A stretch of DNA of 64,000 nt from Amoebophrya sp. A120. Lineage: Eukaryota; Protista; Dinoflagellata. Under the pieces are notes generated by a model that was not told the origin of the DNA, searched no databases, and worked only from the letters and a program-made list of their open reading frames with translations. The position numbers and the translations under genes are program-made. The first letter of the stretch is position 1. Each line of letters opens with the position of its first letter. Location of the stretch: assembly GCA_905178155.1 (NCBI GenBank), contig CAJINV010000001.1, forward strand, positions 1 through 64,000, given 5' to 3'. Shown here one piece after another: positions 33,001-33,883 of this stretch.

Positions 33001-33883
33001 ACGATGCTTTTGCACAGGATATCATCGAAGGCACCACGATCAACACAAAGTACCAATTATCGCAATCATGCATTACAAATCCTATTGTTCTGATAAAACC
33101 GCATTACAAATTCCATTTCTCATTCTGAGCAAATTTGTGATGCAGTTGAGTTTATACAAATGCGATTATAGGCTTAGGCATAGCATACGCATAGCAGTCG
33201 TCGAGGAATTTACTCGAACCCACACAATAAAACAAGGTATGGCAACATCAAGAGCAACCACGTCTTGTTTGTCTGCGCCGGGAGTTTCCACGCCGTCCGC
33301 CCGTCGGACATGCTCGCGGAATTGCAGGGCCGATTGCCCGTGAAGATGAAACTGCATCCGCTTACGGAGGGCGATTTCTACCGGATTTTGACCGAGACCG
33401 AGTTCGGCATCGTCGATCAGAACAAGGCGCTTTTGGGCACAGAGGGCGTGGATGTCAAGTACAGTAATTTTACAAATTCTGTTGTGGGTTGTTGCTATTC
33501 CTATTGCTGTGCTTACTCCCTCCACGAGGACTCTGACGTGGAAGAAAGCAAGCTAAAATCAGAATGAAGACAGGAGCTGCAAGTAGTGTGACTGCACCTT
33601 CACATCAATTGAAACCAAATTTACTTTTACTATACTTAATCTGATCCCTATCAGTTGGACCGAGAGCGGGATGCGGGAGGTGGCAAGACTGGCAACGGAG
33701 ATGAATACTTACATCGAGAATACGGGCGCCCGAAGGCTGCACACCATTGTGGAGCAGGTGACGGACGAGCTCTCTTTTCGGGCGGCGGAATATGCGGGCA
33801 CCAGCGTCGACATTGACGCAGAGTTCGTGCGCGACAAAACCCAGAGCATCGAAATTGACAAGACCCACCGGGGCCTGTTGTAA
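30033..33883 (+). CDS. hslU: HslU/ClpY AAA+ ATPase, probably mitochondrial, 544 aa; exons 30033-30231, 30435-30794, 31129-31324, 31551-31674, 32110-32155, 32467-32561, 32731-32871, 33027-33049, 33237-33458, 33655-33883
   Basis: Motifs [37 protein letters not shown] (Walker A), [25 protein letters not shown] (Walker B), [33 protein letters not shown]-rich N-terminal extension; six GT-AG introns and three introners. Confidence 0.95.
31675..32104. mobile_element. Introner family A with a nested insertion, 430 bp
   Basis: Ends TATGGATTGCAAAAATGTCTGGGTCTGGAAG and CTTCCAGACCCAGACACTTTTGCATTTGATA; DR GCCCC. Confidence 0.95.
32156..32461. mobile_element. Introner family B, 306 bp
   Basis: Ends TATCAAAGGGAAAAATGCCCCCCACCCC and GGGGGTGGGGGCATTTTTCATTGTAATA; DR GGGCG. 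Confidence 0.93.
32872..33021. mobile_element. Introner family C, 150 bp
   Basis: Ends TATGAAATGCAAAAGCATCGTACTAGTAGTAATTGC and GCAATTACTACGAGTACGATGCTTTTGCACAGGATA; DR TCATC; removal restores LLPII|EGTT. Confidence 0.96.

What the first reader, a model, noticed from the sequence alone, without database searches (positions are those of the whole stretch)
33046..33237. Apparent introner caught turning into a canonical GT-AG intron
Seen: HslU intron 33050-33236 is GT-AG, yet it holds three introner-type motifs (GCATTACAAA twice, TTTGTGATGC). It is flanked in exact introner register by CAAAG (33046-33050) and CAAGG (33233-33237). The last G of the upstream repeat plus the element's first T makes the GT. 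The single A/G difference in the downstream repeat makes the AG. The TIRs have decayed. Eight of the nine canonical donors I mapped begin GTAY, which is G plus an introner-like TAY start. Inference: a one-mutation route from introner to spliceosomal intron that may explain many ordinary introns in this genome.
Basis: partly seen in the sequence, partly recalled or inferred. Interest (0 to 1): 0.85.

Follow-up and report, generated by a model that had tools for sequence, protein, structure and literature searches.

The report
Decayed transposon inside a canonical intron
A spliced GT-AG intron in a protease gene of a marine parasite-like protist is mostly the worn remains of a jumping intron-making element and likely began as a non-standard intron that mutated into a standard one, although the element now stops 45 bases short of the repeat that would prove it.

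Summary
The intron is real. About 132 of 187 nt (33055-33186) are a reversed, decayed copy of a high-copy introner family (E 3e-15; 686 contigs). A syntenic relative lacks the intron, so the position is probably not ancient.

The change is therefore not one mutation, and a nested insertion is a live rival. GTAY donors are not evidence: the relative has them too, and most are GTAC while elements start TAT.

Hints for conversion: one element is cut in the predicted 1-nt-offset register; 2 of 6 elements with decayed repeats have a new AG there (P about 0.05); the AAG acceptor is atypical (14 of 15 others are YAG).

GT-AG introns with introner repeats (Amoebophrya A120, 15%) and this TSD geometry (Polarella class 12) are published. 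The scan noted a loosely similar canonical intron with inverted ends in another genome (untested).

The parts
33050..33236 (+). GT-AG intron, 187 nt, phase 2 in a Lys codon of hslU
   Evidence: joint 33049->33237 in contig X4 record 10
33055..33187 (-). decayed introner (family of 32872/36967/48393/52754), reverse orientation; model positions 2-123 of 151; two 5-nt insertions in the surviving TIR arm
   Evidence: E 3.1e-15; 686 contigs of X1 laid, piled up on 33058-33147
33046..33050 (+). upstream repeat CAAAG (exon end plus donor G); candidate TSD copy
33233..33237 (+). downstream repeat CAAGG (acceptor AG plus first exon base); candidate TSD copy, 45 nt beyond the element end
33188..33232 (+). 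45-nt tail with no family homology; starts with GCATA-like repeats and ends A/C-rich like neighbouring acceptors
33050..33058 (+). donor GTACCAATT; resembles the inner part of the family's TIR rather than its TAT start (weak)
   Evidence: by eye
32872..33021 (+). intact neighbouring introner of the same family, TCATC/TCATC repeats, strong hairpin (z -10.1)
33022..33049 (+). 28-nt hslU exon between the two insertions
33237..33458 (+). downstream hslU exon
35059..35318 (+). non-canonical CT..TC intron with decayed repeats; unambiguous cut 1 nt before TAT and 4 nt after ATA
   Evidence: (both=0; 'between: not known')
52754..52913 (+). introner with GTGGA/GTAGA repeats: AG only in the downstream copy, at positions 3-4; a cut before position 3 would give a stop
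57582..57800 (+). old introner with CGACC/GAAGC repeats: AG only in the downstream copy, at positions 3-4
40685..40834 (+). second GT-AG intron with the same NNAAG/NNAGG pattern (TCAAG/TCAGG), starts GTAT; no family motif or TIR
   Evidence: (X8 record 19)

Best explanation
This spliced GT-AG intron is about 70% a decayed, reversed introner, and it likely began as one insertion of that element at CAAAG that was later converted, in several steps, into a canonical intron. Shown: splicing, family homology over 33055-33187, absence in the relative L001, loss of end-to-end pairing. Inferred: (1) insertion with a 5-nt duplication gave a GT donor at birth (repeat G plus element T) and an AA acceptor, cut in the 1-nt-offset register; (2) A to G in the intron-side copy made the AG; (3) with both signals present the terminal hairpin was no longer needed, the outer 25-28 nt of the donor-side TIR were deleted, and the other arm gained two 5-nt insertions and a 45-nt tail.
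For: Homology runs to within 5 nt of the donor. The site is empty in L001, which has ACG AAG TAC, so AAG is ancestral. The acceptor matches the exon end at -4, -3 and -2; 0 of 15 other acceptors have CA before AG and 14 of 15 are YAG. Element 35060 shows the predicted register. At 52754 the reading frame requires a cut after repeat position 3. New AG at positions 3-4 in 2 of 6 elements with decayed repeats, P 0.051. Farhat Table S4 lists GT-AA, the predicted precursor, and CT-AG/AT-AG/TT-AG among the predominant A120 non-canonical types. Fold z -1.8 against -10.1 for the intact neighbour.
Against: The element ends 45 nt before CAAGG, and the tail matches no family contig at 80%; it is A/C-rich (0.9) like other acceptors (0.55-0.9). 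There is no TIR at the claimed register (score -0.5, p 0.54). The start is TAC, not TAT. Decayed copies occur elsewhere without intact ends (5296-5495, 13450-13552), so nesting is feasible.
Confidence: 0.45

Rival explanations
1. An older, lineage-specific GT-AG intron received a nested introner that then decayed. A deletion between the donor's GTAC and a GTAC inside the TIR removed the host's 5' part, and CAAAG/CAAGG is a chance likeness.
For: It explains the 45-nt non-element tail with its typical A/C-rich acceptor tract. GTAC is the commonest donor (6 of 11) and occurs inside the TIR. Five of six GT-AG hslU introns are absent from L001, and the other four carry no motif or TIR. The exon end here is A/C-rich and scores 10.5-21.5 against unrelated intron tails.
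Against: It needs a roughly 2% chance match (CA before AG; 0 of 15 others) in the one intron of 11 that holds an element, and a deletion ending within 5 nt of the donor.
Confidence: 0.3
2. Two layers: an older introner made the intron and left CAAAG/CAAGG (AG by mutation), then decayed beyond recognition, and a younger element inserted into it. The repeat is a true TSD relic, but the motifs belong to another element.
For: It accounts for both the repeat and the tail. Two other motif-free introns show exon-end/acceptor identity at positions 1-3 with A against G at position 4 (40685 TCAAG/TCAGG; 33459 TCAAG/TCAGT); 3 of 11 in all, permutation p 0.012.
Against: Without the target p is 0.13, and TCAG is the commonest acceptor. 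It needs two insertions and a deletion up to the donor.
Confidence: 0.2
3. The GT-AG is incidental, and the intron is still removed by the non-canonical route at the +1 to +3 cut.
For: The joint has 3 ambiguous letters, so the mRNA is the same.
Against: The end-to-end hairpin that marks the non-canonical class is gone, while donor and acceptor context match the canonical class.
Confidence: 0.05

Closest known systems
Amoebophrya A120 introner elements (Farhat et al. 2021, PMC7789003; abstract, passages, section 10, supplement part 3 read; figures not visible)
   Same: TAT-starting inverted repeats, short direct repeats over the exon/intron boundary, non-canonical ends; the paper already reports DR+IR organisation in 15% of A120 canonical introns.
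   Different: This intron has lost its IR pairing and would not be counted by an IR test. In the parts I read, the paper does not propose conversion by mutation of the repeat or fix the cut register.
Polarella glacialis introner-like class 12 (Roy et al., bioRxiv 10.1101/2020.10.14.339549; parts 1-2 of 4 read)
   Same: 5-nt TSD NNAGG, acceptor from the TSD, donor from the TSD's last G plus the element's first base: the same geometry. Boundary conversion over time (GA to GC) is also reported there.
   Different: There both sites exist at insertion; here the AG would arise afterwards from a non-canonical intron.
TSD co-option by introners in general (Gozashti et al. 2022, PMC9860276; passages)
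   Same: Splice sites entirely or partly recruited from the TSD.
   Different: Describes recent intact families, not decayed converts.
Euglenid intermediate introns (Milanowski et al. 2016, PMC4770533; abstract)
   Same: Hairpin-bounded non-conventional introns with one or both canonical borders; conversion suggested from one GC-AG example.
   Different: Different lineage and motifs, no TIR/TSD family, and most intermediates were judged not to be transitional.
+4 pyrimidine donors after SNRNP27K/METTL16 loss (Parker et al. 2023, PMC10581693; abstract)
   Same: GTAY donors here; snRNP27 is reported undetected in both Amoebophrya strains.
   Different: Shown in yeasts for +4U, whereas +4C is commoner here. 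The link is my inference and was not tested.

Membership tests
Amoebophrya-type introner element | repeated sequence family in the genome | tested here: met
   686 X1 contigs laid, piled on 33058-33147; HMM E 3e-15; interior only
Amoebophrya-type introner element | 8-20 nt inverted repeats joining the two intron ends | tested here: not met
   TIR score -0.5, p 0.54; one arm decayed and internal, the other deleted
Amoebophrya-type introner element | 3-5 nt direct repeat abutting the element ends | tested here: inconclusive
   4/5 repeat at the intron ends but 45 nt from the element end
Amoebophrya-type introner element | TAT start | tested here: not met
   TAC at 33051; outer TIR missing
Amoebophrya-type introner element | lineage-specific position | tested here: met
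   empty in L001, 81% aa identity, syntenic; one genomic relative only
Canonical U2 intron | GT-AG ends, removed from the mRNA | tested here: met
   one contig, RNA status guessed by the tool
Canonical U2 intron | actual cut at GT and AG with a branch-point lariat | not testable with these tools
   3 ambiguous letters at the joint
TSD-recruiting introner (class 12 geometry) | NNAGG duplicated at insertion | tested here: not met
   the upstream copy is CAAAG and orthologs keep Lys AAG

The most novel reading that the evidence does not exclude
In this genome hairpin-spliced non-canonical introners are converted stepwise into ordinary spliceosomal introns. The cut is fixed 1 nt before TAT, so repeat positions 1-4 downstream and position 5 upstream are free to mutate. 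A pre-existing GTAY donor preference (possibly from SNRNP27K loss) makes any G+TAT a ready donor, AG arises at positions 3-4, and the hairpin then decays. The window would hold every stage: 13 perfect-repeat elements, 6 with decayed repeats (2 with a new AG), one GT-AG with remnants (this intron) and traceless GT-AG introns with NNAAG/NNAGG ends.
Probability: 0.4. Interest if true: 0.65.

Novelty: new member of a known kind. Interest (0 to 1): 0.4.

Why it matters
How transposon-made introns with odd ends become indistinguishable from ordinary introns is an open question, and conversion has been suggested mostly from single cases. A genome with tens of thousands of such elements and a fixed cut register would let it be measured: direction and position of repeat mismatches, splicing efficiency per stage, and loss of the hairpin. 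This intron alone does not prove the route, but it shows which test to run.

Tried and rejected
No whole genome is held and L001's record is not searchable, so there was no genome-wide test. Runs X12 (raw reads) and X10 gave no usable cover of the junction, and X11 laid nothing; no second allele or empty site was seen in near-identical DNA. The tail as a decayed copy of the upstream mini-exon was rejected: p 0.03 after the fact, score 24 against 10.5-21.5 for the same exon end on unrelated tails. A mini-element 33058-33156 with CCAAT/CAAAT repeats was set aside because family homology continues to 33187. GTACC pairing with the next exon in the fold was taken as chance. GTAY as an introner signature was rejected: 6 GTAC against 4 GTAT, and 4 of 5 L001 introns (placed by eye) are GTAY with no family hit in L001. 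Rows left out: element 63750-63998 (cut by the window end), 6601-7077 (probably chance), remnants 5296 and 13450 (no clear ends), and donors 27044 and 44634 (unverified; left out of the permutation). The 57583 row was off by one and is corrected. Paper searches showed no listing that describes repeat-mutation conversion in Amoebophrya. Farhat's Fig. 3 and S19-S25 are images I could not see and may already show the register and the donor logo; the Curr Biol papers of Roy 2023 and Henriet 2019 were seen only as citations.

Full report
Setting. The window encodes an intron-split HslU (TIGR00390). It also holds 19 elements that start TAT, end mostly ATA, and have terminal inverted repeats and 5-nt flanking repeats. 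This matches the published description of Amoebophrya A120 introners (PMC7789003); the organism is inferred from that likeness only. No whole genome was available.

Observation. All quoted letters are in place. One contig of run X4 (RNA by the tool's guess) splices all nine hslU insertions and joins 33049 to 33237. Three letters fit either side, so the GT-AG cut and the +1 cut are indistinguishable; both keep Lys.

What the intron is made of. It matches four intact copies of one family (32872, 36967, 48393, 52754) in reverse. An HMM of the four aligns model positions 2-123 of 151 to 33186-33055 (E 3.1e-15). All four pairwise alignments and the multiple alignment put the element end at 33187, with two 5-nt insertions. 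An ungapped profile prefers 33182 (+3.4; p 0.035 against shuffles) over 33232 (-25.7). In the DNA-like run X1, 686 contigs were laid on 33022-33330. They pile up on 33058-33147, only the source contig covers 33165 onwards, and their loose ends continue into the family TIR. The last 45 nt before CAAGG are thus not element, and the outer 25-28 nt of the donor-side TIR are gone. The first nine bases resemble the inner TIR (weak). The fold is weak (z -1.8) against the intact neighbour (z -10.1).

Age. L001 is a syntenic relative (81% identity over the exon; upstream genes 41% and 26%). It has no intron here and keeps ACG AAG TAC. Of 80 loci, 78 were scorable and 76 were contiguous by pattern; the other two read through but missed my pattern, and most are bacterial or transcript-like. 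Five of six GT-AG hslU introns are absent from L001, which has four of its own and probably shares the 5'-most one (by eye). Absence therefore makes an ancient position unlikely but does not single out an introner origin.

Is the repeat a TSD? For: 0 of 15 other acceptors have CA before AG and 14 of 15 are YAG, the mismatch falls where the model needs it, and the ancestral base is A. Against: it lies 45 nt from the element end, there is no TIR at that register (p 0.54), similarity extends beyond five bases, and the case was selected. Across 11 GT-AG introns, 3 match at positions 1-3 (p 0.012); without the target 2 of 10 do (p 0.13). Motifs occur in 1 of 11.

The register and other elements. 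Thirteen of 19 elements have perfect repeats and six do not. At 35060 the repeats are almost wholly different and the contig joins 35058 to 35319 with no ambiguity, 1 nt before TAT and 4 nt after ATA (letters between 'not known'). At 52754 cuts before position 3 give a stop. Two of the six have an AG at positions 3-4 in the downstream copy only (52754, 57582); one has it in both copies; three have none. The neutral expectation of two or more is 0.051. Farhat's Table S4 lists GT-AA, GT-AC, CT-AG, AT-AG and TT-AG among the predominant A120 types, although aligner preference inside repeats may inflate these. My rough arithmetic from the paper's figures (15% of canonical, 30% of non-canonical, or 29,850 repeated introns) makes 10-21% of repeat-bearing introns GT-AG. 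In this window's exons 1.3% of 5-mers (fixed register) or 3.2% (any register) would be GT-AG at birth, and 11% are one substitution away. Conversion, or better survival of insertions at ready-made sites, could each explain the excess.

GTAY. It is real (10 of 11), but 6 are GTAC whereas elements start TAT, and 4 of 5 L001 introns are GTAY with no family hit there. It looks like the lineage's older donor consensus. snRNP27 is reported undetected in both strains, and its loss tracks +4U donors in yeasts (PMC10581693, abstract); the link is an untested inference.

Mechanism and odds (judgement, not computed). One insertion converted in several steps 0.45; older intron with a nested element and a chance repeat 0.30; older introner-born intron with a younger nested element 0.20; still spliced non-canonically 0.05. 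The repeat is thus a TSD relic at about 0.65, but the single-mutation snapshot as written is not what the sequence shows.

Known kinds. Canonical introns with DR+IR are reported for A120. The NNAGG geometry and boundary conversion are reported for Polarella and Symbiodinium, TSD co-option broadly, and conversion was suggested for euglenids. The intron works like a worn introner-born intron but fails the membership tests for an intact element. Verdict: new member of a known kind, interest 0.4. The genome-wide stepwise conversion remains open at about 0.4.

Noticed in passing
window 35059-35318: Non-canonical intron whose flanking repeats have decayed (ACGGC/GCTCT), giving an unambiguous cut 1 nt before TAT and 4 nt after ATA; such elements reveal the true splice register.
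   Followed up: partly
window 40685-40834 and 33459-33654: Motif-free GT-AG introns with exon end TCAA and acceptor TCAG, the same A/G pattern as the target.
   Followed up: partly
window 57106-57517 and 57582-57800: Two old introners 64 nt apart in one small gene, both with decayed repeats; the first has AG at positions 2-3 of the downstream copy.
   Followed up: partly
window 5296-5495 and 13450-13552: Decayed introner remnants without clear ends, in stretches that look non-coding by eye.
   Followed up: no
window 957-1205: Intact-repeat element that ends ACA instead of ATA.
   Followed up: no
window 61918-61967 and 62894-62944: About 50-nt duplicate of an acceptor plus exon start, bracketing a GC-rich degenerate tandem array (61985-62630); seen by eye. 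The real acceptor may be the second copy.
   Followed up: no
window about 16920-17240 and 18145-18480: Near-identical direct duplication of about 320 nt, seen by eye.
   Followed up: no
L002 516-518: In-frame TGA in an otherwise intact HslU relative, at a position that is Ala in the window and L001: an error, a pseudogene or a recoded stop.
   Followed up: no
window 30232-33654: Canonical acceptors in hslU have A/C-rich rather than pyrimidine-rich upstream tracts (A+C 0.55-0.9).
   Followed up: partly
L001 1-3950: Gene order is conserved with the window, yet only one hslU intron position appears shared: fast turnover of GT-AG introns.
   Followed up: partly
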